A DNA stretch of 64,000 nt from an uncultured Gammaproteobacteria bacterium (GTDB lineage: Bacteria; Pseudomonadota; Gammaproteobacteria; UBA4575). Numbering within the stretch: the stretch's first letter is position 1; the number at the start of each line of letters is the position of its first letter. Below are positions 6,306 through 63,140 of the stretch, in pieces. Under the pieces are notes generated by a model. It had not been told where the DNA came from, searched no databases, and saw only the letters and a program-made list of their open reading frames with translations. Position numbers and translations under genes: made by a program. The stretch covers positions 1,291,902 to 1,355,901 of the forward strand of contig OX638335.1 of NCBI GenBank assembly GCA_951812785.1, given 5' to 3'.

Positions 6306-6331
6306 ATGTTTGGCTATTTTCCTATTGCTAT

Positions 6332-6910: not shown

Positions 6911-9355
6911 CTAGTGATGTCTCACTTCTTCTTTCTTATTGCTGACCTCTAATATTCTTTTTTTAAGTTCGCTCAAATTCTCACTACCCTCCAATGGGGT
7001 AGGCATTTTAGTTAATGCAATTTCGAGCACCTCATCAATCCATCGTACCGGTCGAATATCCAATTGCTGCTTAATATTATCTGGAATTTCGACAAGATCT
7101 TTTTCGTTTTCTTCTGGAATCACTACTATTTTAATACCACCACGATGCGCTGCAAGTAACTTCTCCTTCAAACCACCTATAGGGAGTACTTCTCCACGCA
7201 AAGTGATTTCGCCTGTCATCGCAACGTCCGCACGAACAGAGATATCTGTCAGCGCAGACACTAGCGCAGTTGTCATTCCCACTCCTGCACTTGGTCCATC
7301 CTTCTTCACTGCACCTTCAGGCACGTGAATATGAATATCTACTTTATCGTAAAATTCCGGACTGACACCTAACTTGGCAGCACGACTACGCACAACAGTT
7401 TGAGCAACTTGAATAGATTCTTTCATGACATCCTCAAGGTTACCCGTTGGCGCAAGCATCTTGCCTTTACCTAAAACAATTTCTGCTTCGATAGTAAGCA
7501 ATTCACCACCAACTTCCGTCCACGCCAAACCAGTCACCTGACCAATTTGATCTTTCTCATCAGCTAACCCGTAACGGAATTTACGCACACCTAAATAGTC
7601 ATCTATATTCTCTGGTGTAACAACAACTTTCTGATCACCTTTACCCAACACGATAGACTTCACTACTTTGCGACAAATTTTAGAAATTTCTCTTTCCAAG
7701 TTACGCACACCCGCTTCACGCGAGTAGTAACGAATAATATCTTGTACAGCATCTTGAGTAATTTCAATTTCATTTTCTTTTAAACCATTTGTTTTAATTT
7801 GCTTAGGAAGCAAATAACGCATGGCAATATTCAACTTTTCATCTTCCGTATAGCCAGCAATACGAATCACTTCCATTCGGTCTAGTAACGGACCAGGAAT
7901 ATTCATACTGTTTGAAGTTGCAACAAACATCACGTCAGACAAATCGAAATCTACTTCTAGATAATGATCACTAAAAGTGTTGTTCTGTTCTGGATCAAGA
8001 ACTTCCAACATAGCTGAAGATGGGTCCCCTCGGAAGTCAGCTGTCATTTTATCGATTTCGTCGAGCAAGAACATTGGATTTCTCACACCAATCTTAGAAA
8101 GATTTTGAATAATTTTACCAGGCAATGATCCGATGTAGGTACGGCGATGCCCACGGATTTCAGCTTCATCACGCACACCACCTAAAGACATACGCGTGTA
8201 CTTTCTTCCAGTCGCACGTGCAATAGATTTTCCTAGAGACGTTTTACCTACACCAGGAGGACCCACCAAACATAGAATTGGACCCTTCAATTTTTTAACG
8301 CGTTGCTGCACTGCTAAATATTCAAGAATACGTTCCTTGACTTTTTCTAAACCAAAGTGGTCTTCTTCAAGAATATTTTCTGCATTAGCAAGATTGCGAT
8401 TAATCCTACTTTTCTTCTTCCATGGTGTGCCCACCATCCAATCAAGATAATTTCTCACCACTGTTGCTTCCGCAGACATTGGAGACATCATCTTTAATTT
8501 ATTCAATTCAGATGTGGCTTTCTCTTTTGCTTCTTCTGGCATTCCAGCATCTTCAATTTTTTGTGCCAGTTCTTCAACTTCATTTGGAGCATCTTCCATT
8601 TCACCTAGTTCTTTCTGAATCGCTTTCATTTGCTCATTCAGATAATACTCGCGTTGGCTCTTCTCCATCTGCTGCTTAACGCGGCCACGTATACGTTTTT
8701 CAATTTGCAACACGTCTAGCTCAGCCTCAATTAAATTCATCAAGTGCTCAAGGCGATCATAAGTCGAAACAATTTCTAGCACACGTTGTTTTTCACCAAG
8801 CTTCAGAGACATGTGTGCCGCAATGGTATCTGACAATCGACTAGGGTCATCAATACCCGCTAGCGAAGTTAATACTTCAGGTGGGACTTTCTTATTTAGT
8901 TTTACATACTGCTCAAACAAGCTAACGATTGAACGAGAAAGAACTTCTAACTTTTTCTCATCTTCTGGTTCTTCATTATTTAGCACTGATATTTCAGCAG
9001 TAAAATATTCTGACTCTTCAGCAAAGCGAATTACTTTTGCACGCTCTGCACCTTCGACTAACACTTTAATCGTGCCATCAGGAAGTTTTAAAAGTTGCAG
9101 GATAGATGACAGAGTCCCAATAGTGTGGAAGTCATCAAATGATGGTTCATCAAGTTCTGCACTTTTCTGCGCTACCAATAGAATTTTTTTGTTGTTTGCC
9201 ATTGCCGCATCCAGAGCCTGGATGGATTTATCTCGGCCGACAAATAATGGGATCACCATATTTGGATACACGACAACATCGCGTAACGGCAACACAGGAA
9301 CGTTGGTAACGTCTGTAAGATCAATAGGGCTATTTTCTTGCTGGTCGTCAGCCAT
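6911..9355 (-). CDS. lon: ATP-dependent Lon protease
   Basis: 814 aa with the Lon N-domain ([21 protein letters not shown]), an AAA+ Walker A (GPPGVGKTS) and a C-terminal protease domain with PKDGPSAG. Confidence 0.97.
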
Positions 9356-9404
9356 GAGGAGACTCCTTTGAGTCTTAATGAGTAGAAATTAAAGGTGAAT
9401 TAGT

Positions 9405-9433
9405 ATTCACACTATATATGGACACCCAACACT
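9405..9433 (-). promoter_or_regulatory. sigma-32 (RpoH) heat-shock promoter upstream of lon
   Basis: On the minus strand the sequence reads CTTGAAA-14 nt-CCATATAT, against the consensus CTTGAAA-N13-15-CCCCATNT. It ends about 50 nt upstream of the lon ATG at 9355. An exact -35 element is seen directly in the sequence. Confidence 0.55.
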
Positions 9434-9475
9434 GATTTCAAGTACCTGCGGGTTAAAGCGCGTACTAAGGAAAAG

Positions 9476-10759
9476 CTATTCCTCTGCAGCAGCTTTTTCG
9501 CAGTCTGTGCCCTCGTAAATGAGATATGGCTTAGCATCCCCTTTAATCACTGCCTCATCGACAACTACTTTGCTCACGCCTTCAATGGAAGGCAAATCAT
9601 ACATCGTATCTAAAAGCACATTTTCTAGGATAGTACGTAGCCCACGCGCGCCAGTTTTACGTTCCATGGCTTTCTTAGCGACAGCAGTTAATGCATTTAG
9701 ACGAAATTCAATTTCTGCACCTTCCATCTCAAACAATCTAGTATATTGCTTAGTCAATGCATTTTTAGGCTCAGTAAGAATACGAACCAATGCATCTGCG
9801 TCTAACTCTTCTAAGGTCGCAACCACTGGCAAACGGCCTACAAATTCTGGAATCAAGCCGTAGCGAACAAGATCTTCAGGTTCAACACCATGCAAGATTT
9901 CTCCAACAGAGGCTTCGTTCTCTCTGCCGCGCACTTCCGCCGAAAAACCGATACCAGTCTTCTCTGTGCGATCAAGAATGACTTTATCCAGTCCCGCAAA
10001 CGCACCACCACAAACGAACAAAATATTACTTGTGTCGACTTGCAAAAACTCTTGTTGTGGATGCTTGCGCCCGCCTTGAGGAGGGACAGAAGCCACTGTA
10101 CCTTCAATCAGTTTTAGCAATGCTTGTTGAACACCTTCACCTGAAACATCACGGGTAATTGAAGGGTTATCTGATTTGCGAGAAATTTTATCAATTTCAT
10201 CGATATAAACTATGCTAGTCTGTGCTTTCTCTACATCGTAGTCGCACTTCTGTAAAAGTTTTTGAATAATATTTTCTACATCTTCACCCACGTAACCTGC
10301 TTCAGTTAGTGTGGTTGCATCCGCAATAGTAAACGGCACGTTAAGTAATCGCGCTAACGTTTCTGCTAATAAAGTTTTTCCTGATCCGGTTGGACCGACT
10401 AACAAAATATTACTTTTCGCTAGCTCAACACCGTCTTTAGCACTGTTACTAGCTTCAAGACGTTTATAGTGATTGTAGACCGCTACTGCCAACACTTTTT
10501 TCGCGCTAACTTGACCGATCACATACTCGTCTAGAATAGCATTAATTTCTTTAGGCTTAGGAAGTTTATTTCCGCTTGCAGGAGACTGCTCCTGCATTTC
10601 TTCACGAATGATGTCGTTACAAAGCTCAACGCATTCATCACAAATAAATACCGATGGCCCAGCAATTAATTTTCTTACTTCGTGCTGACTTTTACCGCAG
10701 AATGAACAATAAAGTAGTTTTCCGCTATCGGTTTCTTTCTTCGAATCATCACCACTCAT
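9476..10759 (-). CDS. clpX: ATP-dependent Clp protease ATP-binding subunit ClpX
   Basis: 427 aa with an N-terminal C4 zinc finger ([11 protein letters not shown]...CDEC), Walker A GPTGSGKT and a ClpX-type IGF loop region. Confidence 0.97.
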
Positions 10760-12946: not shown

Positions 12947-13031
<85 letters not shown>

Positions 13032-14806: not shown

Positions 14807-15067
14807 ACTGGCATAGCGTAGCTAATATCCTTAACTGCCAGCACATGAGACTAACCAGATTTTATATCGCCTTAATCATCATTACTATCAAAGCGAGCAT
14901 ATAAAACCACTTCTTGTAGTTCAGTTAGCTCCTGCATCATAAAGAAACCAGCTTAGCGAATATTTTTATTCGACTCTGTGGATTCATTTCGCCTATGTTG
15001 ATTAGCGAACTAATAAGATCATGGAATGGGAATGCAGGAAAAAGTTGTTGTTATCGCATACGCAAGG

Positions 15068-15144
15068 TGGGGTGAACGATGGGACTCGAACCCACGACGA
15101 CTGGAATCACAATCCAGGGCTCTACCAACTGAGCTACGCTCACC
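15068..15144 (-). tRNA. tRNA-His (anticodon GTG)
   Basis: The reverse complement reads GGTGAGCGTAGCTCAGTTGGTAGAGCCCTGGATTGTGATTCCAGTCGTCGTGGGTTCGAGTCCCATCGTTCACCCCA. It has the extra 5' G characteristic of tRNA-His and is close to E. coli hisR. Confidence 0.9.
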
Positions 15145-15235
15145 ATAACAACCTGGTTAACTATTATGTGGCTATCAGCAATTTGGAATTGCTTATTGTC
15201 TATTTTTTGCAAGTTCTACTACCTACACGCAAATA

Positions 15236-15312
15236 TGGTGCGCCCGGCAGGACTCGAACCTGCAACCCCCGCCTTAGAAGGGCGATGCTCTATCCAGTTG
15301 AGCTACAGGCGC
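15236..15312 (-). tRNA. tRNA-Arg (anticodon TCT)
   Basis: The reverse complement reads GCGCCTGTAGCTCAACTGGATAGAGCATCGCCCTTCTAAGGCGGGGGTTGCAGGTTCGAGTCCTGCCGGGCGCACCA, with a CTTCTAA anticodon loop. Confidence 0.88.
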
Positions 15313-15431
15313 AGAAAACATCCACGTACCATTGTTTTACAGCAGTCAATGGTAGACATTATGACGTACAAGTCAACTTAAGAAAGCCTATTCTAAACAA
15401 TACAATAGTAAGTGAAACAATTTGTAAGTAT

Positions 15432-15508
15432 TGGTCGGGGCAGAGGGATTTGAACCCCCGACCCTCTGCTCCCAAAGCAGATGCGCTACCAGGCTGCGCT
15501 ATGCCCCG
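15432..15508 (-). tRNA. tRNA-Pro (anticodon TGG)
   Basis: The reverse complement reads CGGGGCATAGCGCAGCCTGGTAGCGCATCTGCTTTGGGAGCAGAGGGTCGGGGGTTCAAATCCCTCTGCCCCGACCA. The anticodon loop is TTTGGGA, and it is close to E. coli proM. Confidence 0.9.
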
Positions 15509-15682
15509 AACTGACTTGATTAACCATTCATCGAGAATAGTCGAGTGCGCGGAAGGATACGCGTAATAGATAGCAATCGTCAACCAATTCTAAAATAGAT
15601 TATCGAATAGCCAAATGTCTTTTCCAGCTGGCCTGTATTCATTATGATACACCGCTTAAATCAACCACCAAATAGGCACCCA

Positions 15683-28202: not shown

Positions 28203-30899
28203 TTAGTTTAACTTATCTAGCAAGTCCTTTGCTTGTTGAATTTGAGTTTGATCGCCCTGCTCTATGACTTCCACCAAGGTTTCTTTGGCAGCATCTACAT
28301 CACCCATGTCTACAAATGCTCTAGCTAAATCTAGCTTTGTTCCAACCTCTTCAATCACAGACGGATCTTCAAAATCAGCTGTAAACTCATCTGGACTCGT
28401 CACAGTTGAATCAATGCTTCCAACATCAGATTGCTCAGTCACATTATCTACAAGCATGTCTTTTTTAAATGCGCCTGTTTCGCTGGCTAAATCTTCATTT
28501 GAACCCTCAAAATCCAGATCAGGCTCACTAGCTCCAGAGGTTTTCAGTGTTGGCAAAGAATCTTCTTCCATACCGTCGAGATCAATATCATCCGGATCGA
28601 AGATTAAAGTTTCATCATCAGATTCTGAGTTAAAATCCAAACCTGATTCTAAAGTTGCTATAGACGGCTCACCAAGACTGTCTTCATCAGTATCCGCTGC
28701 AAATGCTTCTGTCTTTTCAGCAATGGTATCTTCAAGCTTCTCAGATACCTCATCACTTAATTCACCATCATCATAAAAGATAAACTCTAGTGAATTATCA
28801 TCTAGATCGAAATCTTTCATATTCTCGGAAGTCATATTAAAGTTATTAATGTCATCACTCTTGATAGATTCTACCGCCTCTGGTTCATCATTGGCTCCAG
28901 CAAACAACTCATGCGCTGGGGCTAGAGCAGCACCCATTGAAGCAATTTTATTCCATTCTGGAGATTGCTTATCCATAATTGGTTGCATCGCTTCTGCATA
29001 TTGTACAAACTCGCTAGGCTTCTTATCTTTGTAATAAATCTCGGCTAATTTAACTTGGTATTTTGCATTGTCGGGTTCTTTAGCAAGACCATCTCTTAGC
29101 AGATCCTCTGCTTGCTGATAAAGTTCATAGGAAATGTATACGTCGGCCTCTGCTAGCACATCATCAACACCTAACGAAGCCTCACTTTGAGCGTTGACTG
29201 TTCCAAGAACATCCAATGATTCATCAATACTATCAGGAGTGGCAATCACTGTTTCGTCAAATGATAGTTCTTCTTCAAACGCTGGTAGATCATTTGCTTC
29301 AAGATCGATATTTTCTAATTTTGCATTGCGTCGCTTGATGCCTAACCAACCAAGGAGAAGCGCCACTAAGGCAATCCCCGCATAAATTACAGTCTTACTC
29401 TGATCTTTAAGTACTGCTACGATTTTTTCAACAAAAGAGACTTCAACTACCGACTCAACTGGAACAACTTCGGCTAACACCTTCGGCGCTACTTCAGCCA
29501 CTAAACTTTCAGGTTGCGCAACGTCTGCTTGCTGTTCTGCAACCAAGAATTCTTCTGGAATTGGGCCCGAGAAATCAGGTAATGGTTCAACTGTAGCTGC
29601 TTTAATACTGTGCTTAAATTTAACTTCCATTTCTGCTGCAAGTACTTCCGCCGAAGATTGCCCTGCTAAATCAGGGCTTTTCGTAGCTAGTGTATTTTGC
29701 AACTGAGCCAATTGCTCATTTTGCAGACTAATAATATCTTCCTGCTTTTTAAGCATTGACTCAAGTGATTCTATACGACCTTTCAATTCAGCATTTTCTT
29801 GGCCTTTAGACTTCGAATTCTCCGTAAGCAGATTAACCTGCTTATGTAATTTTTTTAACTTTGCATTAGCATCACCGCCTGTTTTGCCATCTACGACATC
29901 ACCACCTAAAATAGACAAAGACGAATCAATAGTTTTTGATTGCTCTTGCTTTAATAGTTCAGGCGTTCCCATTGTTTCGTCGTCAGCTATATCGACAGCA
30001 TCAACATTAACTTCACTTGAATCAAACGGTGTACTTTGCTTCCATACTTGCCTTTGACGTCGAACTTCTGCAAGTGCTTCGCGCACAGAATATCTTGGCT
30101 CCACATCCGCAGGAATGCGTAGAACCACACCCGACTTTAAATTATTAATGTTGTTTTTCACAAAACCCTGTGGGTTGGCGGCGTGAATAGCCAACATCAT
30201 TTGATTGACGCTTACACCATTCTCATGTGCATAAAGCTCGGCAATACTCCATAGAGTATCCCCACGACCAACTGGTCTGGATTGAATCTTTTTTAGAGCT
30301 ACTGTACTGGGTACAGCAGCTTGCGTTGGGCGCAGACTAGGAGTTGGCACTCTTAGCGCAGGTGTTTTAGTTGCTGTACGAAGTTTAGGCACTGGCTTCT
30401 TTGCAACTGCCGCAGGTTGTGCTGCCACTTTTGGTGCTTGAATTGTGACTCTAGTATTCCCACCAAAAACAGGGGGATCTAATAGCACCGTATATTCTCT
30501 AAGTAGCTTACCTTTTGCCCAATGCACATCAATTAAGAAAGCGAGGAATGGCTCACGTATAGCATCTGTTGAAGTCACTTTAATAACTGGTTTGCCATTG
30601 GAAATCATCGGTGTAAATTTTAAGCGAGTCAGAATGTAAGGTCGCGGAACACCCACTCTCTCAAACATCTGTTGACTAGCTAGTTCAACTTGAACTTCAT
30701 CAATAGTGGCTGCACTGAAACCTACCAGATCGATCTCTGCATCCATTGCCTGATTAAGTGCAGAGTTAATTTCTATTTCACCTAATCTAAAGGCGAAGAC
30801 AAACCCGGGGCTTCCAACAAGCAAAGTGGCCAATAAAGTAAGCGCCACAATCTCCTTATGCACTCTTGCTCCCCCCATAATTACTTTCTGTATGTTCAC
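28203..30899 (-). CDS. fimV: FimV/HubP-type peptidoglycan-binding (LysM) scaffold protein
   Basis: 898 aa with the FimV N-terminal motif LGEIEINSALNQAMDAEIDL and a LysM domain (RGDTLWSIAELYAHENGVSVNQMMLAIHAANPQGF). It has a TM segment, an acidic coiled-coil region and the FimV C-terminal motif LDLARAFVDMGDVDAAKETLVEVI. Confidence 0.88.
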   Translation of the reverse strand: MNIQKVIMGGARVHKEIVALTLLATLLVGSPGFVFAFRLGEIEINSALNQAMDAEIDLVGFSAATIDEVQVELASQQMFERVGVPRPYILTRLKFTPMISNGKPVIKVTSTDAIREPFLAFLIDVHWAKGKLLREYTVLLDPPVFGGNTRVTIQAPKVAAQPAAVAKKPVPKLRTATKTPALRVPTPSLRPTQAAVPSTVALKKIQSRPVGRGDTLWSIAELYAHENGVSVNQMMLAIHAANPQGFVKNNINNLKSGVVLRIPADVEPRYSVREALAEVRRQRQVWKQSTPFDSSEVNVDAVDIADDETMGTPELLKQEQSKTIDSSLSILGGDVVDGKTGGDANAKLKKLHKQVNLLTENSKSKGQENAELKGRIESLESMLKKQEDIISLQNEQLAQLQNTLATKSPDLAGQSSAEVLAAEMEVKFKHSIKAATVEPLPDFSGPIPEEFLVAEQQADVAQPESLVAEVAPKVLAEVVPVESVVEVSFVEKIVAVLKDQSKTVIYAGIALVALLLGWLGIKRRNAKLENIDLEANDLPAFEEELSFDETVIATPDSIDESLDVLGTVNAQSEASLGVDDVLAEADVYISYELYQQAEDLLRDGLAKEPDNAKYQVKLAEIYYKDKKPSEFVQYAEAMQPIMDKQSPEWNKIASMGAALAPAHELFAGANDEPEAVESIKSDDINNFNMTSENMKDFDLDDNSLEFIFYDDGELSDEVSEKLEDTIAEKTEAFAADTDEDSLGEPSIATLESGLDFNSESDDETLIFDPDDIDLDGMEEDSLPTLKTSGASEPDLDFEGSNEDLASETGAFKKDMLVDNVTEQSDVGSIDSTVTSPDEFTADFEDPSVIEEVGTKLDLARAFVDMGDVDAAKETLVEVIEQGDQTQIQQAKDLLDKLN

Positions 30900-37363: not shown

Positions 37364-38008
37364 ATGAACGCGATAAACAAAGCAATCTTAGTTATCCTAG
37401 CGATTGCTGTTTCTATTGGCTTAGGCATTTACGCATCCGGCAAGCAATTTGCGTTAGGCGATATTCATCAACAGCTAAAACAGGCAACCTATTTATACGA
37501 CCAACAGAAGTCTATCGCGAACTTCACGCTGATCGATTACGACAACAATATACTTACCCCTGACAGTATCAAGGGGGCATGGACATTTTGGTTCTTTGGC
37601 TTCACTCATTGTCCCGACATTTGCCCAATCACATTAGGCATCTTAAGCGCCACTGTGAATAAATTAAAGTCGAAACACAATATAGAAGACGATATAAAAA
37701 TTATTTTTGTGTCAGTCGACCCGGAACGAGACCAGCCAGCAAAGTTAAAGTCTTATACCAACGCTTTTAGTGCACATGCGCTAGGCGTCACTGCTCCATC
37801 AAAACAACTCGCACCATTTTTAAAGAATATGGGCATTATTGCTATCAAGCAATTACCCAAACAAGAATCATCAGACTACTCAGTCGATCACAGTAGTTCA
37901 ATTTTCTTAATTGCTCCAGACACAGGAATTAGTGCTGTTTTTGGCGCACCGCATAATGCTGAGGATATCGTTCAAGACTTTTTAACTATTCGTAAATTTT
38001 ATCAATAA
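37364..38008 (+). CDS. SCO1/SenC-family copper chaperone / thiol-disulfide protein
   Basis: 214 aa with an N-terminal TM anchor and a thioredoxin-like fold carrying HCPDICP (CxxxC). Confidence 0.8.
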   Translation: MNAINKAILVILAIAVSIGLGIYASGKQFALGDIHQQLKQATYLYDQQKSIANFTLIDYDNNILTPDSIKGAWTFWFFGFTHCPDICPITLGILSATVNKLKSKHNIEDDIKIIFVSVDPERDQPAKLKSYTNAFSAHALGVTAPSKQLAPFLKNMGIIAIKQLPKQESSDYSVDHSSSIFLIAPDTGISAVFGAPHNAEDIVQDFLTIRKFYQ

Positions 38009-38883
38009 TGGAATCAACGCTTGCTACACCCTGGGAAAAGCTAAAAAGCTTAATCTTTCACTGCTTTCCACATCATTTATTGTCACGCACAACATTTTGG
38101 CTCACGCGCCAACGCCTACCTTTTGTAGGGGCATTAATTAAAGCCTTTATCAGCACTTTCAAAGTTGATATGAAGGATGCTGTCGTTGATGACATTTCCC
38201 AATATCCAACATTCAATGAATTTTTCACGCGCGAGTTAAAACCTGGCACACGTCCGATCAACAAAAGCACAGAATGCATTGCCTCTCCTTGCGATGGCAA
38301 AATCAGCATGTTTGGCGATATTGATCAACACACGCTTTTACAAGCAAAAGGCAAAACATTCACTCTCAATGAGTTCTTAACGCCTAACTGCAAATATCTA
38401 GAACAATTTATTGGCGGTAGCTTTTATACAATTTATTTGTCCCCACGCGATTACCATCGCGTGCATAGCGCCTATGCAGGTCAGCTATTAGAAATGATTT
38501 ATGTTCCAGGCAGATTATTTAGCGTTGCCCCATATGCACCAAAAGCAATTGAGAAATTATATGCGCGCAACGAAAGAGTGGTCTCCATCTTCAAAGTAGA
38601 CAGCGGCTATATGGCTATTACCATGGTAGGCGCCGTTAACGTGGCTGCAATTGAAATGACTTGGGAAGGGTTAGTGACCCCCCCACACTTAAACACCTCT
38701 GTTCACTATGATTATGGTGATCGATCCATATCGTTACAGAAAGGAGAGCAGATAGGCACATTCAATATGGGCTCAACCGTGGTGATGATGTTTTCAAAAA
38801 ATTATGCGCAGGCATTAAAACAATTGCATATTGACCAGCCTATTAAAATGGGAGAAACCATCGCCAAACGCACAAAGGCTTAA
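38008..38883 (+). CDS. psd: phosphatidylserine decarboxylase proenzyme
   Basis: 291 aa with the GST self-cleavage motif (MGSTVVMM). It overlaps the SCO1 stop codon by 1 nt (TAATG). Confidence 0.9.
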   Translation: MESTLATPWEKLKSLIFHCFPHHLLSRTTFWLTRQRLPFVGALIKAFISTFKVDMKDAVVDDISQYPTFNEFFTRELKPGTRPINKSTECIASPCDGKISMFGDIDQHTLLQAKGKTFTLNEFLTPNCKYLEQFIGGSFYTIYLSPRDYHRVHSAYAGQLLEMIYVPGRLFSVAPYAPKAIEKLYARNERVVSIFKVDSGYMAITMVGAVNVAAIEMTWEGLVTPPHLNTSVHYDYGDRSISLQKGEQIGTFNMGSTVVMMFSKNYAQALKQLHIDQPIKMGETIAKRTKA

Positions 38884-39836
38884 GCCCTAGACCAATCAAA
38901 GCTAATAACCTCTGCTAATGAAGATGCACCTAGTGCTAACATCAAGACGCGATCAAAACCAACAGCAACACCCGCACATTCTGGCAGACCCTGTCGTAGT
39001 GCAGCTATTAGACGCTGATCAATTTCAATCTCTGTTAATCCTCTATCCTTGCGATTTTTTTGATCATTAGCAAACCGATCTAGTTGTTGTTCAGGATCTA
39101 ATAACTCCACGTAGCCATTAGCCAGTTCCACCCCCTTGTAAAACACTTCAAACCTTTCAGCGACAGAATCATCATCGTCATTTATCTTAGATAAAGCAGC
39201 TTGTGCAGCAGGATAGTGGAACACCACAGTAATAGATTGTTCACACATTGCAAATTCAACTTTATGTGAGAATAAAAAATCTATGCATTGCTGCGATGAC
39301 AAATCCGCTCGTAACACCAAACCATTTTCCACGGCTAGCTGTTTAATCTCATTACCAGTCAAAGACTGCAGAGACACTCCTAGAGATTTTTCAGCTAAAT
39401 CGTAGTAACTAATATATTCAATATTAATAAATGCATCACTTGCCGTTAACAGACACGAAATAAGATCAACCGTTTCCTCCATAATTTGTTGTAATGAATA
39501 CTCGCGCCGATACCATTCAATTATGGTGAATTCAGGATTATGCAAATCGCCCAGCTCACCTACACGAAAAGATTTACATATTTGAAAAATATCTGGTGCG
39601 CCATCAGCTAGCAGTCGCTTCATGGCATATTCAGGAGAGGTTTGTAGATATCGTTGAGCGCCATCAGCAAAAAAACCAAACGACTCAATATTTGCTTCAG
39701 TTACTGTATATGCGCATGCTAGAGGTGTCTCTACCTCCAGCACATTACGTTCAGAGAAAAAGCTGCGCGACTGATTCAGTAGCTGTGCGCGTTGCTCCAG
39801 ATTATACAAACTAGCTGTCGAGCGCCAATCAGACAT
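38880..39836 (-). CDS. epmA: elongation factor P--(R)-beta-lysine ligase
   Basis: 318 aa truncated class-II LysRS catalytic paralog with no anticodon-binding domain, reading ...LEVETPLAC... and ending ...AGVAVGFDRVLML. Confidence 0.85.
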   Translation of the reverse strand: MSDWRSTASLYNLEQRAQLLNQSRSFFSERNVLEVETPLACAYTVTEANIESFGFFADGAQRYLQTSPEYAMKRLLADGAPDIFQICKSFRVGELGDLHNPEFTIIEWYRREYSLQQIMEETVDLISCLLTASDAFINIEYISYYDLAEKSLGVSLQSLTGNEIKQLAVENGLVLRADLSSQQCIDFLFSHKVEFAMCEQSITVVFHYPAAQAALSKINDDDDSVAERFEVFYKGVELANGYVELLDPEQQLDRFANDQKNRKDRGLTEIEIDQRLIAALRQGLPECAGVAVGFDRVLMLALGASSLAEVISFDWSRA

Positions 39837-39853
39837 GGAACTAAATTAACAGA

Positions 39854-40426
39854 CTAATTATCTTTTACCCGAGACACATATTCGCCTGTACGCGTATCAA
39901 TCTTGATCACTTCGCCCTCTTCAACAAAAAGAGGTACCTTCACTGTTGCCCCAGTTTCAAGCGTGGCTGGCTTAGTGGCACCTTGTGCTGTATCACCTTT
40001 CACACCAGGATCAGATTGAGTGATTTTTAATTCCACAAAATTTGGCGCAGTCACCAACAAAGGCGCTCTATTATACAATGTGACTTGGCAGACATCCTGA
40101 TCTTTCAACCACTTAGAAGTTTCCCCTACGGCAGTTTTATCAGCAGCATGCTGCTCAAATGTGCTTTGATCCATAAAATGCCAATATTCACCATCCGTAT
40201 ATAAATATTGCATATCTACATCCATAACATCAGCTCCCTCTACACTATCTCCAGACTTGAAGGTACGATCCACCACTCGCCCTGTCTTAAGGTTGCGAAT
40301 CCTGACTCGGTTAAATGCTTGACCTTTACCAGGTTTTACAAATTCATTTTCCACGATGGAATGAGGATCTCCATCAAGCATAATTTTAAGACCTGATTTG
40401 AATTCGCTAGTACTGTAATTTGACAT
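39854..40426 (-). CDS. efp: elongation factor P
   Basis: 190 aa. The loop [11 protein letters not shown] carries the conserved Lys that is beta-lysylated (not Arg), which is consistent with the flanking epmA and epmB. Confidence 0.95.
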
Positions 40427-40458
40427 AAAGATAACTTTGATAATTTAGAGGATTCAAC

Positions 40459-41451
40459 ATGATACCGCGTAAGCAAACAGCAGAACATCCCCTACACTGG
40501 AAAAAGTTATTTGCAAAAATATATGTGGGCATTAAAGAAATGTCTAATAATGCGGCAGATTACTCAATTAGCTTAGACGAACTGACTAAAGTTAATTCGT
40601 TATTCCCAATTCAAGTATCCCAGCAATTTCTCGAAAGCCACAGCCTTGATGGGCCAGTATTAAGACAGTACCTAGCAAGTACACAAGAGCTAATAGACCC
40701 ACCAGGTTACACACATGACCCAGTTGGTGACATTTCGGCAACCTTACAGCCCGGTGTGATCAAGAAATATAATCACCGTGTATTGCTAATCACCAACAAC
40801 ACCTGTCCAATACATTGCCGTTATTGCTTTAGAAAAGATTTCCCTTATCCTCAATCCAATCCCAATACGCATCACTTCAAACAAGCACTAACTTTTTGCC
40901 AACAAGACAAATCTGTGAATGAAGTCATCCTCAGCGGTGGGGACCCACTTAGCTTAGAAGATGAAATTCTCAATTATCTTTTTAAATCGCTAGAAAAAAT
41001 TTCTCATATCAAAACGATTCGCTTACACACAAAATTTCCCTCTGTATTTCCTGAGCGCATCACACATGAATTACTCGCCACACTCAACAGCTCTACACTC
41101 AACAAAGTATGTGTATTTCACATCAATCACCCCGATGAAATTAATCAGAAATTTTGTGATGTAGTGCAAAAAATCAAACAAACAAATACAACTACACTCA
41201 ATCAATCTGTGCTGCTAAATAATGTCAACAACAATGCTGATGTGCTGATTGATTTATCTAATAAATTATTTGCAGCTGGCATCCTTCCTTATTACCTGCA
41301 CATGCTTGACCACGCCAAAGGAACACACCACTTCAAGGTCCCAAATAAAGAGGCCAAACAAATCATCCAACAAATGAAAGACAATCTCCCCGGCTACTTG
41401 GTGCCTAAACTTGCTCAGGAAATTTCTGGCCAAAACAGCAAATCTTACTAA
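40459..41451 (+). CDS. epmB: EF-P beta-lysylation protein EpmB (lysine 2,3-aminomutase family, radical SAM)
   Basis: 330 aa with the radical-SAM motif CPIHCRYCFRK in a KamA-like fold. Confidence 0.88.
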   Translation: MIPRKQTAEHPLHWKKLFAKIYVGIKEMSNNAADYSISLDELTKVNSLFPIQVSQQFLESHSLDGPVLRQYLASTQELIDPPGYTHDPVGDISATLQPGVIKKYNHRVLLITNNTCPIHCRYCFRKDFPYPQSNPNTHHFKQALTFCQQDKSVNEVILSGGDPLSLEDEILNYLFKSLEKISHIKTIRLHTKFPSVFPERITHELLATLNSSTLNKVCVFHINHPDEINQKFCDVVQKIKQTNTTTLNQSVLLNNVNNNADVLIDLSNKLFAAGILPYYLHMLDHAKGTHHFKVPNKEAKQIIQQMKDNLPGYLVPKLAQEISGQNSKSY

Positions 41452-41588
41452 GACCTCTAACCTATTAATTGTTAATCATTTTATTGAAATTTTCTAGTTG
41501 ATAAGACAGCCACAAACTTCAAACTGGATAACAGTCATACTTATTCATACCTATTAGGATAAACGGAGCACTACTGCCGACCAATAGG

Positions 41589-41611
41589 CGGCTAGCTAGC
41601 CGATTTTTATT
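41589..41611 (+). terminator. palindrome plus T-run downstream of epmB
   Basis: The perfect palindrome cggctagctagccg is followed by atttttatt. It lies about 140 nt after the epmB stop codon. The stem is short, so confidence is modest. Confidence 0.35.
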
Positions 41612-41827
41612 AGCACAAGTTTTAAAATCTAAAGTTGGAAATTTAAACCTGATAGGAAGTTATTAGACATGTGAATCTATACGTCTACACAGAATCCATT
41701 GACACAACCAGATATTGCATCCACTCCGCGTCAAGAAATGGAGCAACGTCAACCCCAAAAACCAAGAAAAATATTCAGCAACTAATAATGATAATCGCTT
41801 TACCGAAAGGGCACGACTTATAAACAC

Positions 41828-43880
41828 ATGAATCAAACATTAAAAATATTGGTGATTGACCAAGATGCAAACAATGCTGACAATATTGTGCGAACAATAA
41901 AATCAGCAGGTTTTGCGGTGCAAAAGACCATTGTTTCATCCAAAGAGCAACTCGAAGAAGTAAAAAATTTAGAGATAAATCCTCACATTACCATTCAAAC
42001 TAACAATATTAGTGAGCTAGGCATCCGAGATACTCGCTCTTGCTTTACGACAGATTCTCACGAAGCACCGATAGTTGCACTTTGTGAAGACGCATCTACC
42101 CAGCAATCAAAATTATTCATGGATGGTGCCCATACTGTACTACCTTACAATGACAGCGAACAGTTAAAACACGTGACGTCACGTCTTGCGCAGACAGAAT
42201 TTTACATTCAGGCCTTAAAAGCACAAGCAGATAACTATATAGAACTAAGTCAACGTTACAATAAAATTCTTGATAACTCACGCGACGCCATCTGTTATAT
42301 CCACGAGGGATTACATACTTACGCTAATGCATCATATTTAAAATTATTCGAAATTGAAGACTTCAAAGACGCAAGCGTATTATCAATATTAGAATTAGTG
42401 TCACCTGATGACAAAGCATCATTAAAATCGATACTAAAAGACGTTAGCAAGAATCACACTTCCGGAACTACTAGCCTAAGTTTTAAATCAGGCGATGAAT
42501 TTTTCTATCCCGATATCGAATACAGTCCGATATTAATTGATGGCGAGACCTGCGTACAATTTATATTGCACATGCAAACAAGTGAACCCAAAGACCTGCA
42601 AGAGCAGTTTAGTTATATTAATGAGCATGAAGCTGGTTTCTCCCACAAAAAAATCGTTTACTGACAAAATCCAAGAAGCAATTAAATTTGCCCAAGCTGG
42701 AAAAATTCCGTCGACTTATATTCAGATTGACATTGCCAATATCGATGCCATCAGAGATCAATTTGGTATCAGTGCAATTGACAAGCTGAACTCACATATA
42801 GCTGAAGCGCTTAAACAAGTATGTAACGACGAGGAAGTACTTGGAAAAATCAATGACAAATCATTCGCCATACTGACTTCCGAGAATAACGAAAATAAAC
42901 TAGTTGCATTAGGCGCATGCCTTAGAGATGCAATCGACAAAAATCCAGCCACAACCAAAAACCAAAAGATTTCTCCGGAGTTATATATAGGCGCCACATC
43001 ATTAGGTCTAGACCTGAGAAAAGTCACAGATGTTTTATCTACAGCTAAATCAGCATGTGACCATGCCTGGGAAAATAAAATGCAGGAACTTTATATTTTC
43101 GCTGAAGAATCACGTAGCCTGACTGGCACATTCCTGGATCAAAAATGGAAGCAAGAGTTACAAGATGCTACTCGCGAAAATAGATTTCTACTATTAGTCC
43201 AGCCGATTGTTAGCATTAATGGAAAAACTGAGAATCGTTACCAAATATATACTCAGCTAGTCAGCAAAGAAGGTGCAAAAATTTCTTTGGCCGAGTTGCT
43301 ACCAAGTATAGAGAGAGCAAACGTGTCAATAATGCTTGACCGCTGGGTAGCAACCACAGCAATTAAAAAACTTGCTGAACATACTGATAAAAGTCCTAAA
43401 TCTCAGTTTTTCATTAAATGAACTACAGGTGCTTTAAACGATCAACAATTCGCAGTATGGTTAGAAAAACAATGTAAAAGCAATAATGTCGATCCATCTA
43501 GGCTAGTCTTTAATATGCGTGAAGAAAGCATCATTAGCCACTTAAAAGATTCGCGCGAATTCGCAGCTCAGTTACAACAGCTTGGTTGTCAAATTGCTAT
43601 TGATGCATTCGGAATCAGCCGAGAGCCAGAAAAGATTCTATCGATGATTCCTGCCAGTTACTTAAAGCTAAGTTTTCAGCTAATGGCCAGCCTTAAGAAT
43701 GGTGATAAAGAGCGCATTGAAGAGATTAGACATATATGCAAACAGGCAAAACAGAAAAATACTATGATAATCGCACCATTCGTAGAATCTGCAGAAGCTT
43801 TACCTCAGATTTGGTCAGTCAATGTTGATTTTGTTAGCGAAGACTTCTTCTGCGAGCCTGACGAGAACTTAAGTTACAAC
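41828..43880 (+). pseudogene. FimX-like c-di-GMP protein (REC-PAS-degenerate GGDEF-degenerate EAL), disrupted by a frameshift and an in-frame TGA
   Basis: Three track ORFs concatenate into one protein of about 690 aa. They are 41828..42664 (REC-like KILVIDQD... plus PAS), 42537..43421 and 43515..44168. The middle ORF carries a GGDEF-like domain with NDKSF in place of GGDEF, and the EAL start with QIY in place of EAL. The last ORF carries the rest of the EAL domain, IDAFGIS...IAPFVES...VDFVSEDFF. ORF A joins ORF B through a -1 shift in the A7 run at 42647-42653. ORFs B and C are in the same frame and are separated only by the TGA at 43419-43421. The 3' limit is uncertain. The open frame runs antisense through htpX to 44168, but the EAL homology ends near 43880. 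Confidence 0.65.
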
Positions 43881-44758
43881 TTCTCTAGCGCTGCAATCCG
43901 TTGTGCTAGCGGCGGATGCGACATTAGTAACTTCTGCAAACCTCCTTTAACTCCACCTGATATTCCAAATGCCGCCAATTCGCCAGGTAAACTTTCAGGC
44001 TCATGCGCAGATTGTAATCGTCGCAATGCTGCAATCATATTTTGTTTACCAGCAAGTTCAGCGCCACTTATGTCAGCACGATATTCTCTTCGGCGCGAAA
44101 ACCATTTAGCAATAATGGCCGCCAAAATACCTAGCACCACTTCAGCAACAATACTTCCTATCCAATAGCCTGGACCTATGCCGCGTTCAATTTTAAATAC
44201 AGCACGGTCTATTAACATACCGATAATACGAGAAAACAAAATTACAAAGGTATTCAGCACTCCTTGTAACAGACCCATGGTAACCATGTCACCATTTGCC
44301 ACATGACTCACTTCGTGACCTAATACAGCTTCTACTTCGTTTTTAGACATGGATTGCAGTAGACCTGTGCTGACAGCTACTAAGGCAGCGTTTTTATTCA
44401 TGCCTGTGGCAAATGCGTTCGGTTGTGGTGATTGAAATACCCCGACTTCCGGCATTCCGATACCCGCCTGCTCAGCTTGTTTGCGAACCGTTTCTACTAA
44501 CCATCGCTCGCTATCGTTTTGCGGTGATTCAATTACTTGCACTTTCATGCTTCGCTTAGCCATCCATTTAGATATCGCTAAGGAAATAAACGAGCCACCG
44601 AAGCCCATCACTAAGGCCATAATCAGTAAGCCGTTGACTTGGCCTGCCATACCCTGTTGCGCTAACCATGCATCAAGCCCAAGCACGCGAGAAGAAATAC
44701 TCAGGACGGCTAATACACCAAAGTTCGCTGCTAAAAATAATCCGATACGTGAAAACAT
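43874..44758 (-). CDS. htpX: heat-shock zinc metalloprotease HtpX
   Basis: 294 aa with two N-terminal TM segments and the motif HEVSHVANGD (HExxH). The C-terminus reads ...MSHPPLAQRIAALEKL. Confidence 0.93.
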   Translation of the reverse strand: MFSRIGLFLAANFGVLAVLSISSRVLGLDAWLAQQGMAGQVNGLLIMALVMGFGGSFISLAISKWMAKRSMKVQVIESPQNDSERWLVETVRKQAEQAGIGMPEVGVFQSPQPNAFATGMNKNAALVAVSTGLLQSMSKNEVEAVLGHEVSHVANGDMVTMGLLQGVLNTFVILFSRIIGMLIDRAVFKIERGIGPGYWIGSIVAEVVLGILAAIIAKWFSRRREYRADISGAELAGKQNMIAALRRLQSAHEPESLPGELAAFGISGGVKGGLQKLLMSHPPLAQRIAALEKL

Positions 44759-44855
44759 GACTACCTCTTACTGAATAACCGGTTCAAGTTCTAATACTAG
44801 CAAATATAAGCATAGTGGCAATTTATGACAAATCAATCTTAAATAGTTCACTCAA

Positions 44856-47117
44856 TCAGTCAGAGGCAAAATCAACAACCAAGCGATCGACGACTCGATA
44901 ACCTCGAGGCAACTTAAGCCCACGTCTACCACGTTCTCCCGCATACCCGTCAACTTCACCACCTTTCATGGTTTTATGCTTCTTGCCGCAATATAGTGTG
45001 AGTGCTTCACCATCCTGTATAAGACAGACATGATGCACTTTTTCTTCGCCCGCCTTAAGTTTTGCACTTGGTATATTGATGAATTTAATGCCTTTGCCTT
45101 TGGACATTAATGGAAATTCAGAAAGCTCGGTTACTAACATATAACCTTCCAAACCCACAGCAACAATCCAATCTTCTTCATGAGAACGCACCAATACTGG
45201 AGGTAACACTTTTGCACCCAGCGGCACATTCAAAATGCGTTTACCCGCCTTATTACGCGAATATAGATCTTCTAACTTACACACAAACCCATAGCCAAAG
45301 TCTGTTGCAAGAAAATATAGACTATCAGGGTCTCCAGTCATGACACCAACAAAACTCGCACCATCAGCAGGATTGAAACGCGCCGCTAACGATTCACCTT
45401 GTCCGCGCGCCGAGGGCAAACTATGTGCAGGGAGAGTATAGGCCTTACCTTGCGAATCTAAAAATACAGCCATTTGATTACTCTTACCAAAGGCATGTGA
45501 TTGATATTGGTCACCTGCTTTGTAATTCATTTCAACGGGGTCAACCTCATGCCCTTTGGCAGCTCTTACCCATCCTCGCTGCGACAAGATTACTGTCGTT
45601 AATTCAGCAGGCATTAATTGCGTTTCATCTAACTGATGAGCAGCGGCTCGACTTACCATGGCAGATCTTCTTTCGTCACCATAAGTTTCTGCATCTTCAA
45701 GTAACTCAGTACGAATTAGCTTTTTGAGTCGTGCTTTTGAACCAAGCGTTTTTTCTAACGTCTCTCTCTCTTCATTTAATTCTTTTGTTTCTGCTTTAAT
45801 TTTGATTTCTTCAAGTTTAGCTAGGCGTCTTAACTTGATTTCTAAAATAGATTCAGCCTGAATATCACTTAGCTTAAAGCGCTTCATCATCACTAGCTTG
45901 GGCTCATCTTCCTCACGTATAATGGCAATAATTTCATCAATATTGAGATAGGCAATCAGTAAACCTTCTAAGATATGCAAACGCTCATTAACCCGATCTA
46001 AGCACCACTGCAATCGACGCGTAACGGTGTGCGTTCTGAACTTCAACCACTCTTGCAACAACGTACGCAAATCTTTAACTTGTGGACGACCATTTATACC
46101 AATGACATTCATGTTCACTCGATAAGTGCGCTCCAGGTCTGTAGTAGTAAATAAATGCAACATCAATGCTTCCACGTTGATGCGATTACTCCTGGGCACA
46201 ATCACTAACCGTACTGGATTTTCATGATCAGACTCATCACGCAAATCATCTACCATTGGCAGCTTCTTGGCGTTCATTTGCTGTGCAATTTGCTCCAACA
46301 CACGTGCACCTGATACCTGATAAGGCAAGGCGGTAATAATTATTCCGTCAATTTCCTGATCGTACACAGCACGCATACGCACTTGACCATTACCCGTTTG
46401 GTAAATGTTTTGAATTTCATCTGGGTTAGAAATTATTTCTGCATCAGTGGGATAGTCTGGACCAAGCACATGCTCACACAATTCACTGGTCGTCGCTTTT
46501 GGCTCATCCAATAAGCGAATGCAAGCAGACACTACTTCCCGAATATTATGCGGAGGAATATCCGTAGACATACCCACGGCAATCCCCATCCCACCATTAA
46601 GCAATATATTTGGCAAGCGCGCAGGCAATACCACTGGCTCTTGTAAGGTACCGTCAAAATTTGGCGTCCAGCCAACCGTACCTTGACCTAATTCTTGCAA
46701 CAAAGATTTTGCGTAAGGCGTTAATCGAGATTCAGTGTATCTCATTGCCGCAAAAGATTTAGGGTCGTCAGTTGAGCCCCAGTTACCTTGACCCTGCACC
46801 AATGGATAACGATAAGAGAATGGCTGAGCCATTAATACCATAGCCTCGTAGCAGGCCGAATCACCATGAGGATGGAATTTACCAATCACGTCACCCACTG
46901 TACGTGCTGACTTCTTAGGTTTTGAAGCAGCCGACAAACCTAACTCAGACATGGCGTAAACAATTCTGCGCTGTACAGGTTTCAAGCCATCACCAATTTG
47001 CGGCAAAGCACGATCAAGAATCACATACATCGAATAATCGAGGTAGGCTTTCTCTGAGAAAGTATGTAGCGGTACACGTTCTACATCGCCGTAATCAAAT
47101 TCAAAGTTATCACTCAT
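44856..47117 (-). CDS. parC: DNA topoisomerase IV subunit A
   Basis: 753 aa GyrA/ParC-family protein reading ...[12 protein letters not shown]...GLKPVQRRI.... Its size and its pairing with the 628-aa ParE-length B subunit point to ParC rather than GyrA. Confidence 0.88.
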
Positions 47118-47141
47118 GACTAATCCAAGATTACCTAAATA

Positions 47142-49031
<1,890 letters not shown>

Positions 49032-62012: not shown

Positions 62013-63093
62013 GAGAGTTACCCGTTTTGATAAAGGTGTTGAAATCTTTAAATCAAACCAAAAAGGCAGGTAACTCTCATGCTTGATACTAACAATCCAA
62101 TCCTTAAACACAAGGCGGGCTTGCTCAACTTAGCAGAAGAACTGGGCAACGTATCTAGCGCCTGTCAAGTCATGGGGGTGTCGCGAGACACATTCTATCG
62201 TTATCAACAGCGGGTTGAAGAAGGTGGCATTGACTCACGGATTGACAAGAGTCGTAGAACAGCCGATGTTAAAAACCGTGTGGATGAACCCACAGCACAT
62301 GCAGGGGTTACGTCAGCGATTGAACAGCCCGCGGTTGGGCAACATCGAAGCAGCAATGAACTGGTGTGTTTATCGCTGGTAGCGGTGTGCGTTGCGTTTG
62401 GCTGCGCCATACTCTAGAGCACTTCAAGAAACGACTCAAAGCACTCGAAGAAGAAATTGCCAAGGAGGGCATTATCTTAAGCGATGCACAGATCGCCGCC
62501 CTTGAGAAACAGGATGACGAGGCCTGTGGTGAGATTGACACGGCACATCCTGGTGACTTAGGCAGCCAGGATACGTTTTACCTAGGCCACCTCAAAGGTG
62601 TTGGTCGGCTATACCAGCAAACGTTCGTAGACACCTACAGCAAGATCGCCTTTGCGGCACTCTACACGACTAAGACGCCGATTACCGCCGCAGACCTACT
62701 CTTTGATGAGGTGCTACCGTTTTTTGAAAAGCATGCCTTGCCGATGCTACGTAGTTTAACCGACAGAGGCACAGAATATTGTGGGCGCGTGGAGCATCAT
62801 GACGATCCGTGATACCTGGCCATTAACGACATTGATCACCGCAAACCCATGGCATCTCTGAATGAGTTTTATCAAATTACCTTCAGGAAAAAACGGTACT
62901 CAACCAGGGAGGATTGACCAAAAGATCAAGACAACTGGATAGAAACTGATCACAATGAACGCACTCATCAAGGCAACATGGGCGGTGGTAGAATACCCAT
63001 GGACAGGTTAATGGATGGTAAATTGATTTGGGCTGAAAAGAATTTAGCTCACATCTAAACTGACAGACTCCTATCAATAACCGGTAACGGTAC
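62013..63093 (+). mobile_element. IS481-family insertion sequence (about 1.08 kb) with a decayed transposase
   Basis: The imperfect terminal inverted repeats are the left IR TTACCCGTTTTGATAAAGGTGTTG (62018-62041) and the reverse complement of 63064-63090, TTACCGGTTATTGATAGGAGTCTG. Between them lies a transposase split over at least two frames plus in-frame stops. It has an HTH domain (MLDTNNPILKHKAGLLNLAEELGNVSSACQVMGVSRDTFYRYQQ) and a DDE core (...TDRGTEYCGRVEHHDDP*YLAINDIDHRK...RED*PKDQDNWIETDHNERTHQGNMGGGRIPMD). The family assignment is from memory of IS481 and ISL3-like transposases. Confidence 0.7.
62079..63058 (+). pseudogene. IS481-family transposase pseudogene (frameshift near 62366-62417; in-frame TGA at 62810-62812 and 62915-62917)
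   Basis: Track ORFs 62079..62417 (frame 0) and 62366..62812 (frame 2) overlap. Frame 2 continues through two TGA codons to the TAA at 63056-63058. The transposase-like sequence persists across both stops. Confidence 0.7.
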
Positions 63094-63140
63094 GATCAGG
63101 TCTGAGCTACTACAGATTAGCGAGAAAATCACAACCCAAT

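What the first reader, a model, noticed from the sequence alone, without database searches (positions are those of the whole stretch)
41828..44168. FimX-like REC-PAS-GGDEF-EAL gene with both catalytic motifs degenerate (NDKSF for GGDEF, QIY for EAL)
The reconstructed domain order and length, about 690 aa, match the Pseudomonas/Xanthomonas FimX architecture. FimX is a c-di-GMP receptor for type IV pilus control and has a degenerate GGDEF and an EVL motif. Here both motifs have diverged further, while FimV, another type IV pilus regulator, is intact 11 kb away. The gene is also doubly disrupted, as described in the next two findings. A long 375-nt upstream leader (41452-41827) precedes it. Its apparent 3' end runs antisense through about 290 nt of htpX, which more likely reflects a chance open antisense frame than real coding.
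Basis: partly seen in the sequence, partly recalled or inferred. Interest (0 to 1): 0.6.

Follow-up and report, generated by a model that had tools for sequence, protein, structure and literature searches.

The report
Decayed fimW-fimX pilus-regulator locus
This is the dead remnant of a FimX-type type IV pilus regulator gene whose partner gene fimW has been deleted next to it, so it is an ordinary case of gene loss rather than a new kind of receptor.

Summary
Window 41828-44168 carries a REC-PAS-GGDEF-EAL gene with NDKSF and QIY at the catalytic motifs, broken into three ORF pieces.

It is a true FimX relative. The family profile hits P. aeruginosa FimX best in the PDB (E 1e-98). More than 40 intact 690-693 aa homologues exist in uncultured marine Gammaproteobacteria. 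In them the gene sits directly downstream of a fimW homologue (Pfam FimW_N), as fimX does in Pseudomonas.

The window copy is a pseudogene with three disabling lesions:
- a +1 frameshift in an A7 run (42647-42653);
- a Leu-to-stop change, most simply TTA>TGA (43419-43421);
- a 29-bp deletion between short direct repeats that removed its stop codon, which explains the tail antisense to htpX.

The "375-nt leader" is a scar. A deletion of about 1.62 kb removed fimW, leaving only stubs.

The window copy has changed 8.7% of otherwise invariant residues, against 1.4% in five flanking genes (p = 2e-9). The changes are spread over all three pieces.

The odd motifs are not decay products. Every intact homologue has N/TDESF and Q-V/I-Y/F.

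Three related lineages carry independent fimX lesions.

FimV is intact. Whether pili persist cannot be told from this window.

The parts
41452..41658 (+). Native epmB-fimW intergenic region. It holds a conserved terminator-like hairpin at 41589-41602.
   Evidence: About 78% identical to the same spacer in L001 and L003. Hairpin found.
41659..41746 (+). Dead 5' stub of fimW. A 10-nt deletion removed the A and T of its ATG. A TGA at 41672-41674 replaces Gln. About 29 codons remain.
   Evidence: tblastn of the L001 FimW homologue and DNA alignment A4.
41747..41764 (.). Junction of the deletion of about 1.62 kb that removed the body of fimW (L001 positions about 8323-9942 are missing).
   Evidence: blastn finds left and right homology blocks with about 20 unaligned bases between them.
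41765..41827 (+). Last 6 codons and TAA stop (41783-41785) of fimW, followed by the native fimW-fimX spacer.
   Evidence: Alignment A4 against L001 and L003.
41828..43895 (+). fimX pseudogene: all sequence homologous to the 691-aa intact proteins. Pfam domains: REC-like 41846-42094, PAS 42254-42547, GGDEF 42648-43079, EAL 43152-43859.
42647..42653 (+). A7 run with one extra A, giving a +1 frameshift. Relatives read CAC AGA AAA TCA (H R K S) here. Removing one A restores ...GFSHKKSFTDKIQ.
42852..42866 (+). NDKSF at the GGDEF motif position. Intact homologues have N/TDESF and P. aeruginosa FimX has GDSIF.
   Evidence: PMC11656802.
43242..43250 (+). QIY at the EAL motif position. Intact homologues have QVY, QIY or QVF and P. 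aeruginosa FimX has EVL. The equivalent of Arg479 is Gln.
43419..43421 (+). In-frame TGA where all 15 aligned homologues have Leu (FFIKLTTGAL). The simplest change is TTA>TGA.
43884..43894 (.). Surviving copy of the direct repeat TCTAGCGC(T)GC, marking a 29-bp deletion. The deletion removed the last codon and stop of fimX, the spacer, and the last codons and stop of htpX.
   Evidence: DNA alignment A3 against L001-L004 and L006.
43896..44168 (+). Read-through tail antisense to htpX. It is not homologous to any FimX and exists only because the stop codon was deleted.
43874..44758 (-). htpX (Peptidase_M48), intact at 294 aa. The deletion rebuilt its C-terminus as ...AALEKL*, against ...AALENS* in L001.

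Best explanation
The region is the non-functional remnant of a two-gene module, fimW-fimX. In P. aeruginosa this module couples c-di-GMP to type IV pilus extension.

In this genome's ancestors the order was epmB, fimW, fimX, then htpX on the opposite strand. Shown from sequence: fimW lost its start codon, gained a stop, and then lost about 1.62 kb. fimX gained a +1 frameshift in an A-run that an AGA>AAA change had created. It also gained a Leu-to-stop change in the EAL domain, a 6-nt in-frame deletion in the PAS-GGDEF linker, and a 29-bp deletion between short direct repeats that took out its stop codon. That last deletion left htpX with a new stop two codons further on.

Inferred: no full-length FimX can be made, and no fragment is being preserved. 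The organism no longer uses this regulatory input.

The unusual motifs (N/TDESF; Q-V/I-Y/F with Arg479 replaced) are the normal state of the intact protein in this clade. They are not decay.
For: Family and orthology:
- More than 40 intact homologues of 690-693 aa, at 47-81% identity.
- The family profile hits P. aeruginosa FimX GGDEF-EAL (4j40) at E 9.8e-99 and 334 bits. The next hit, PA0861, scores 275 bits. The EAL-only FimX chains score about 240 bits, against 162 bits for the best EAL-only chain that is not a FimX.
- The REC-like domain lacks the phospho-acceptor Asp, as reported for FimX (PMC12139848).
- FimW is PA4958 and FimX is PA4959, and the two are encoded together (PMC10335732, PMC11656802).

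Lesions.

Assembly quality: epmB, efp, epmA, htpX, parC, parE and FimV are all full length.

Relaxed constraint:
- 25 of 287 otherwise invariant columns have changed in fimX, against 22 of 1529 in five flanking genes (Fisher p = 2e-9). The same ratio is 0.6-0.7 in the closest relatives L001-L003.
- dN between the window and L001 is 0.106, against 0.041-0.058 among L001-L003.
- The changes are spread evenly: 6.8%, 11.1% and 7.9% of invariant columns in the three pieces.
- The window alone has G672E, at a Gly kept in 148 of 150 FimX-like representatives.
Against: - dS between the window and its nearest relatives is saturated (above 1), so no clean branch omega could be obtained.
- efp and parE also show a somewhat longer window branch, so part of the excess distance is lineage-wide.
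- Many window-specific replacements are conservative.
- There is no shift in GC content or mutation direction.
- The window's own genome is in none of the collections, so the lesions could not be confirmed in an independent assembly.
- Expression was not tested.
Confidence: 0.9

Rival explanations
1. The gene is intact in the organism, and the disruptions are sequencing or assembly errors.
For: The frameshift lies in a homopolymer (A7), a classic error site. One related long-read contig, L032, shows many split genes of that kind.
Against: - There are several independent lesions of different types: an indel, a substitution to TGA, a 29-bp deletion, a 1.62-kb deletion, and a 10-nt deletion plus a stop in the fimW stub.
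- All flanking genes match the lengths of their orthologues exactly.
- Amino-acid replacement is elevated at invariant sites.
Confidence: 0.03
2. The locus still works. Either it is recoded (slippage at the A-run plus TGA read-through), or it works as separate fragments, for example a free REC-PAS protein from 41828-42664.
For: - The first ORF keeps its ATG and the native upstream spacer.
- A-runs allow transcriptional or translational slippage (general knowledge).
- In FimX the N-terminal REC domain is reported to mediate dimerisation (PMC3527489).
Against: - A full-length product would need three events: a frameshift, read-through of TGA at a Leu position, and a C-terminus 91 aa too long.
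- TGA behaves as a normal stop in the rest of the gene-dense window.
- Window-specific changes at invariant sites are as frequent in the first piece as in the others: 6.8% vs 11.1% vs 7.9%, or 12.8%, 12.4% and 11.1% with the five-sequence set.
- Its partner fimW is deleted.
Confidence: 0.05
3. It is not a FimX orthologue but an ordinary GGDEF-EAL signalling paralogue, so the link to pili is spurious.
For: - NCBIfam has no FimX model, and the best NCBIfam hits are generic DGC/PDE equivalogs far below their cutoffs.
- No pilus machinery genes lie in the window apart from FimV.
- Several c-di-GMP contact residues of P. aeruginosa FimX are changed.
Against: - FimX is the top PDB hit by a margin of about 60 bits.
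- A representative 66% identical to P. aeruginosa FimX is among the best 40 of 1.8 billion proteins for this profile, and the hits are uniformly about 690 aa.
- The YDFSS C-terminus is shared.
- The REC domain is degenerate.
- A FimW_N gene lies immediately upstream in relatives.
Confidence: 0.05

Closest known systems
P. aeruginosa FimX (PA4959)
   Same: - REC(degenerate)-PAS-GGDEF(degenerate)-EAL(degenerate) architecture of about 690 aa.
- Best PDB sequence match.
- Q461, D507, K616, F652 and E654 are retained, as is the YDFSS C-terminus.
- In relatives it is encoded directly downstream of fimW.
   Different: - The window copy is a pseudogene.
- Clade-wide changes: EVL becomes Q-V/I-Y/F, Arg479 becomes Gln or Ala, His533 becomes Lys, Tyr673 becomes Asp or Asn, and GDSIF becomes N/TDESF. 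[quoted passage not shown]
Acinetobacter baylyi FimX (PMC12139848)
   Same: A FimX homologue whose motifs have drifted further (EVT, ENGSY), with Leu477 and Arg479 replaced. It was shown experimentally not to bind c-di-GMP or GTP. It is a precedent for FimX proteins that have left c-di-GMP signalling.
   Different: - A. baylyi also lost the F652 and E654 equivalents, which this clade keeps.
- The A. baylyi gene is intact and functional (it controls pilus localisation through Pil-Chp). The window gene is dead.
Xanthomonas FimX (XAC2398; PDB 4f3h, 4foj, 7lkq)
   Same: Same family. PDB hits at 184-271 bits.
   Different: - It keeps a canonical EAL triad and acts through PilZ-PilB (PMC11656802, PMC12139848).
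- It is less similar than the Pseudomonas protein.
P. aeruginosa FimW (PA4958), for the deleted neighbour
   Same: Relatives' upstream gene matches Pfam FimW_N. Its model has PilZ-like C-terminal barrels. It lies adjacent to fimX.
   Different: - In the window only about 29 codons at the 5' end and 7 codons at the 3' end (the stop included) survive.

Membership tests
FimX | REC-PAS-GGDEF-EAL order, about 690 aa | tested here: met
   Pfam on the window pieces and on 16 family members. Homologues are 690-693 aa. The reconstruction is 689 aa.
FimX | Closest characterised relative is FimX rather than an active DGC or PDE | tested here: met
   PDB profile search: FimX 4j40 at 334 bits, PA0861 at 275 bits. 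EAL-only FimX chains score about 240 bits, against 162 bits for the best EAL-only chain that is not a FimX. A Pseudomonas-type representative is among the top 40 library hits.
FimX | REC domain lacks the phospho-acceptor Asp | tested here: met
   Alignment with CheY: the Asp57 position is Thr, Ala, Ser or Asn in all 16 members. This depends on the alignment.
FimX | Degenerate GGDEF motif (GDSIF type), no cyclase signature | tested here: met
   NDKSF in the window and N/TDESF in homologues at the GDSIF position.
FimX | EAL domain keeps the c-di-GMP-binding residues (E475, L477, R479, D507, F652, E654, Y673) | tested here: inconclusive
   D507, F652 and E654 are kept, as are Q461 and K616. E475Q, L477Y, R479Q and Y673D are changed across the clade. 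R479 is kept in 132 of 150 FimX-like representatives. Binding itself cannot be tested here.
FimX | Encoded next to fimW | tested here: met
   Relatives have a FimW_N gene directly upstream. In the window only its stubs remain.
FimX | Intact gene able to give a full-length protein | tested here: not met
   Frameshift, nonsense codon and loss of the stop codon. The window copy is a pseudogene of the family, not a working member.
FimX | Promotes PilB-dependent type IV pilus assembly | not testable with these tools
   The only pilus-related gene in the window is FimV. The rest of the genome is unavailable.
FimW (deleted neighbour) | FimW_N domain plus a C-terminal PilZ-type fold | tested here: met

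The most novel reading that the evidence does not exclude
In this whole clade of uncultured marine Gammaproteobacteria, the intact FimX has Gln at the EAL glutamate and has lost Arg479. It may therefore no longer bind c-di-GMP, like A. baylyi FimX, while still being paired with a PilZ-type FimW. The module would then be only weakly needed. That would explain why it has been knocked out independently at least four times: in the window, L010, L033/L034 and L035.
Probability: 0.3. Interest if true: 0.4.

Novelty: new member of a known kind. Interest (0 to 1): 0.25.

Why it matters
For annotation: 41828-44168 should be called a fimX pseudogene ending at 43895. 41659-41785 should be called a fimW remnant. 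The region should not be annotated as three hypothetical proteins and a leader.

For biology, it records the loss of the FimW/FimX input to type IV pilus control in one lineage. Independent lesions in three related lineages hint that this module is dispensable in the clade. That makes the clade a natural comparison set for asking what FimW and FimX contribute when c-di-GMP-binding residues drift.

It does not reveal a new mechanism.

Tried and rejected
- Local Pfam and NCBIfam scans of the relatives' 597-aa upstream protein gave nothing. Its identity came from a newer precomputed Pfam label and from fold comparison.
- A PDB sequence search with the FimW-like profile found nothing.
- The afdb50 fold library was unavailable.
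- Pairwise dN/dS was uninformative because dS is saturated.
- Simple distance ratios were ambiguous, because efp and parE also show a long window branch. I replaced them with the invariant-column test.
- GC content and mutation direction showed no sign of decay.
- The promoter scan was at chance level: 9 found against 10.5 expected.
- Rfam found only six tRNAs and nothing in the "leader".
- The window's ParC is not in the contig index, so the source genome could not be identified.
- L032 (noisy long-read assembly) and L036 (a gap of Ns in a scaffold) were rejected as evidence of further pseudogenes.
- TGA recoding was rejected, because table 11 gives a dense set of long ORFs across the window.

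Full report
**What is there.** Three ORF pieces lie on the + strand at 41828-42664, 42537-43421 and 43515-44168. The last two are in the same frame, separated by a TGA. Pfam finds, in order, a marginal REC (E 0.12), PAS (6.5e-7), GGDEF (3.9e-13) and an EAL domain split across the last two pieces (2.9e-10 and 2.7e-21). The described architecture, length and motifs are therefore real. NDKSF is at 42852-42866 and QIY at 43242-43250.

**Relatives.** A reconstructed protein finds 178 homologues. More than 40 are intact proteins of 690-693 aa at 47-81% identity. A second group of about 690 aa lies at 35-37%, and more distant ones at about 27%. Nearly all come from uncultured marine Gammaproteobacteria MAGs. 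Thirty genomic loci were recovered, and NCBI titles call them Gammaproteobacteria or Thiotrichales. The best is 78% identical, so the window's own genome is not in the collection. Its ParC is not in the contig index either.

**Is it FimX?**
- A profile of the family hits P. aeruginosa FimX (4j40, GGDEF-EAL) at E 9.8e-99 and 334 bits. PA0861 scores 275 bits and Xanthomonas FimX 271 bits. The EAL-only FimX chains score about 240 bits, against 162 bits for the best EAL-only chain that is not a FimX. The C-terminal YDFSS is shared.
- In an exhaustive search of 1.8 billion representatives, the top 150 hits are almost all about 690 aa. They include, within the top 40, a protein 66% identical to P. 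aeruginosa FimX.
- REC is recognised in 6 of 16 members. The Asp57 equivalent is never Asp, which matches the degenerate REC described for FimX (PMC12139848).
- FimW (PA4958) is a PilZ-type c-di-GMP effector encoded with FimX (PA4959) in P. aeruginosa (PMC10335732, PMC11656802, PMC12564702).
- From my own memory of the PAO1 map, psd (PA4957) and parC/parE (PA4964/PA4967) also flank the pair there, as they do here. I did not verify that with a tool.

**Lesions in fimX.**
1. Relatives read CAC AGA AAA TCA (H R K S). The window reads CAC AAA AAA A TCG, an A7 run at 42647-42653. Removing one A restores ...GFSHKKSFTDKIQEAI.
2. A TGA at 43419-43421 replaces a Leu that is invariant in all 15 aligned homologues (FFIKLTTGAL). 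The simplest change is TTA>TGA.
3. DNA alignment with five relatives shows a 29-bp deletion at 43892-43895, between direct repeats TCTAGCGC(N)GC. One repeat encodes SSAA at the end of fimX. The other is the reverse complement of AALE at the end of htpX. The deletion removed the last codon and stop of fimX, the 4-nt spacer, and the last codons and stop of htpX. htpX picks up a new stop two codons on (...AALEKL* against ...AALENS*) and stays at 294 aa. fimX reads on for 91 codons antisense to htpX.
4. A 6-nt in-frame deletion shortens the PAS-GGDEF linker (ERDHETG becomes EHEAG).

**The "leader".** In relatives, a gene of 578-619 aa lies between epmB and fimX. Window 41400-41746 aligns with the end of epmB, the spacer and the first codons of that gene. 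Window 41767-41898 aligns with its last 20 nt, the spacer and the start of fimX. About 1.62 kb is missing between them. Within the 5' stub, a 10-nt deletion removed the A and T of the ATG, and a TGA (41672-41674) replaces Gln. So 41452-41827 is a deletion scar, not a regulatory leader. A conserved hairpin at 41589-41602 belongs to the native epmB-fimW spacer.

**Artefact or real?** Flanking genes are full length and match their orthologues exactly: epmB 330 aa, efp 190, epmA 318, htpX 294, parC 753 and parE 628. The window is gene-dense under table 11.

I counted the columns that are invariant in seven other lineages but changed in the window:

| Genes | Changed / invariant columns | Share |
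|---|---|---|
| fimX | 25 / 287 | 8.7% |
| Five flanking genes | 22 / 1529 | 1.4% |

Fisher's test gives p = 2e-9. The same fimX-to-flank ratio is 0.6-0.7 for L001-L003 and 1.3 for L005. The changes are spread evenly over the three pieces, so no fragment looks preserved.

The window alone has G672E, at a Gly kept in 148 of 150 FimX-like representatives, and E348K in the GGDEF motif.

There are caveats. dS is saturated, so branch omega is not measurable. efp and parE show some lineage-wide lengthening. There is no GC drift.

**Motifs.** I mapped the family onto P. aeruginosa FimX numbering and checked the mapping against published residues (Q461, E475, L477, R479, D507, H533, K616, F652, E654 and Y673; PMC3527489, PMC12139848).
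- Every intact homologue has E475Q, L477Y/F, R479Q/A, H533K and Y673D/N.
- Every intact homologue in the Q-V/I-Y/F clade (81% down to 35% identity) keeps Q461, D507, K616, F652 and E654.

The divergence is thus a trait of the clade, not of this pseudogene.

Across the 150 best representatives the triad is very variable: EVL 34, EVF 16, EAL 8. Arg479 is kept in 132 of 150. This clade therefore belongs to a minority that lost a phosphate-contacting residue. A. baylyi FimX, with L477T, R479G and further changes, does not bind c-di-GMP (PMC12139848). Whether the intact proteins of this clade bind it remains open.

**Recurrent loss.**
- L010 has a frameshift in fimX (at DAICYIHE) and another near the 3' end of fimW, with intact flanks.
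- L033 and L034 share a frameshifting deletion near codon 400. Five contigs carry the same truncated product, and the two shown come from two sequencing runs.
- L035 has a nonsense codon (YLELF*).
- L032 and L036 were discarded as assembly noise.

**Context.** FimV (28203-30899, minus strand) is complete, with FimV_N, FimV_core, TPR and FimV_Cterm domains. If it had decayed at the rate of fimX (three disabling lesions in 2.07 kb), an intact 2.7-kb ORF would be expected only about 2% of the time. That is my own estimate. FimV therefore seems to be still under selection. But FimV/HubP proteins have roles beyond pili, and no pilus machinery genes lie in the window. Whether pili persist cannot be told.

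**Verdict.** This is a correctly spotted FimX-type gene, but it is a pseudogene inside a decayed fimW-fimX module.

Noticed in passing
window 62079-63100: Decayed transposase. An HTH_29 ORF (62079-62417) is followed by an rve-type integrase core broken by a frame change and at least two stops. Local GC is 0.49, against 0.41 for the window. By eye it looks like an IS481-family remnant.
   Followed up: partly
L010 8190-12075; L033 5001-7062 and L034 4794-6855; L035 3434-5509: Independent disabling lesions of fimX in three related lineages, all with intact flanking genes. L010 has frameshifts in fimX and near the 3' end of fimW. L033 and L034 share a frameshifting deletion. L035 has a nonsense codon.
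   Followed up: partly
window 41589-41602: GC-rich hairpin followed by a T-run (CGGCTAGCTAGCCG ATTTTTATT) in the epmB-fimW spacer. It is conserved in L001 and L003, with changes on both arms. It is probably the epmB terminator.
   Followed up: no
window 43884-43894 and L001 12060-12100: The C-termini of fimX (SSAA) and of the convergent htpX (AALE) happen to give the same 8-11 bp on the + strand. This created the direct repeat that mediated the 29-bp deletion. htpX was repaired in passing, with a new stop two codons on.
   Followed up: yes
window 38008-49028 and L031: The gene order SCO1, psd, epmA, efp, epmB, fimW, fimX, htpX, parC, parE, uvrD-like is kept across the clade. It recalls psd-fimW-fimX...parC...parE in P. 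aeruginosa PAO1. The PAO1 order is from memory and was not checked with a tool.
   Followed up: partly
window 6232-6407, 12950-13031, 15071-15508: Six tRNA genes on the minus strand. The 181-aa ORF listed at 15021-15566 overlaps three of them and is almost certainly spurious.
   Followed up: no
L001 8171-9964 (family alignment A2): The FimW-like proteins of this clade have a helical N-terminal half, a disordered linker of about 65 residues (pLDDT below 50, residues 350-415) and C-terminal PilZ-like barrels. I did not check whether they keep the RxxxR and D/NxSxxG c-di-GMP motifs.
   Followed up: no
L032 (ERZ28496111 contig_22): A 335-kb contig of a related MAG in which efp, epmA, epmB and fimX are all split. 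This is the typical indel noise of a long-read assembly, not biology.
   Followed up: partly
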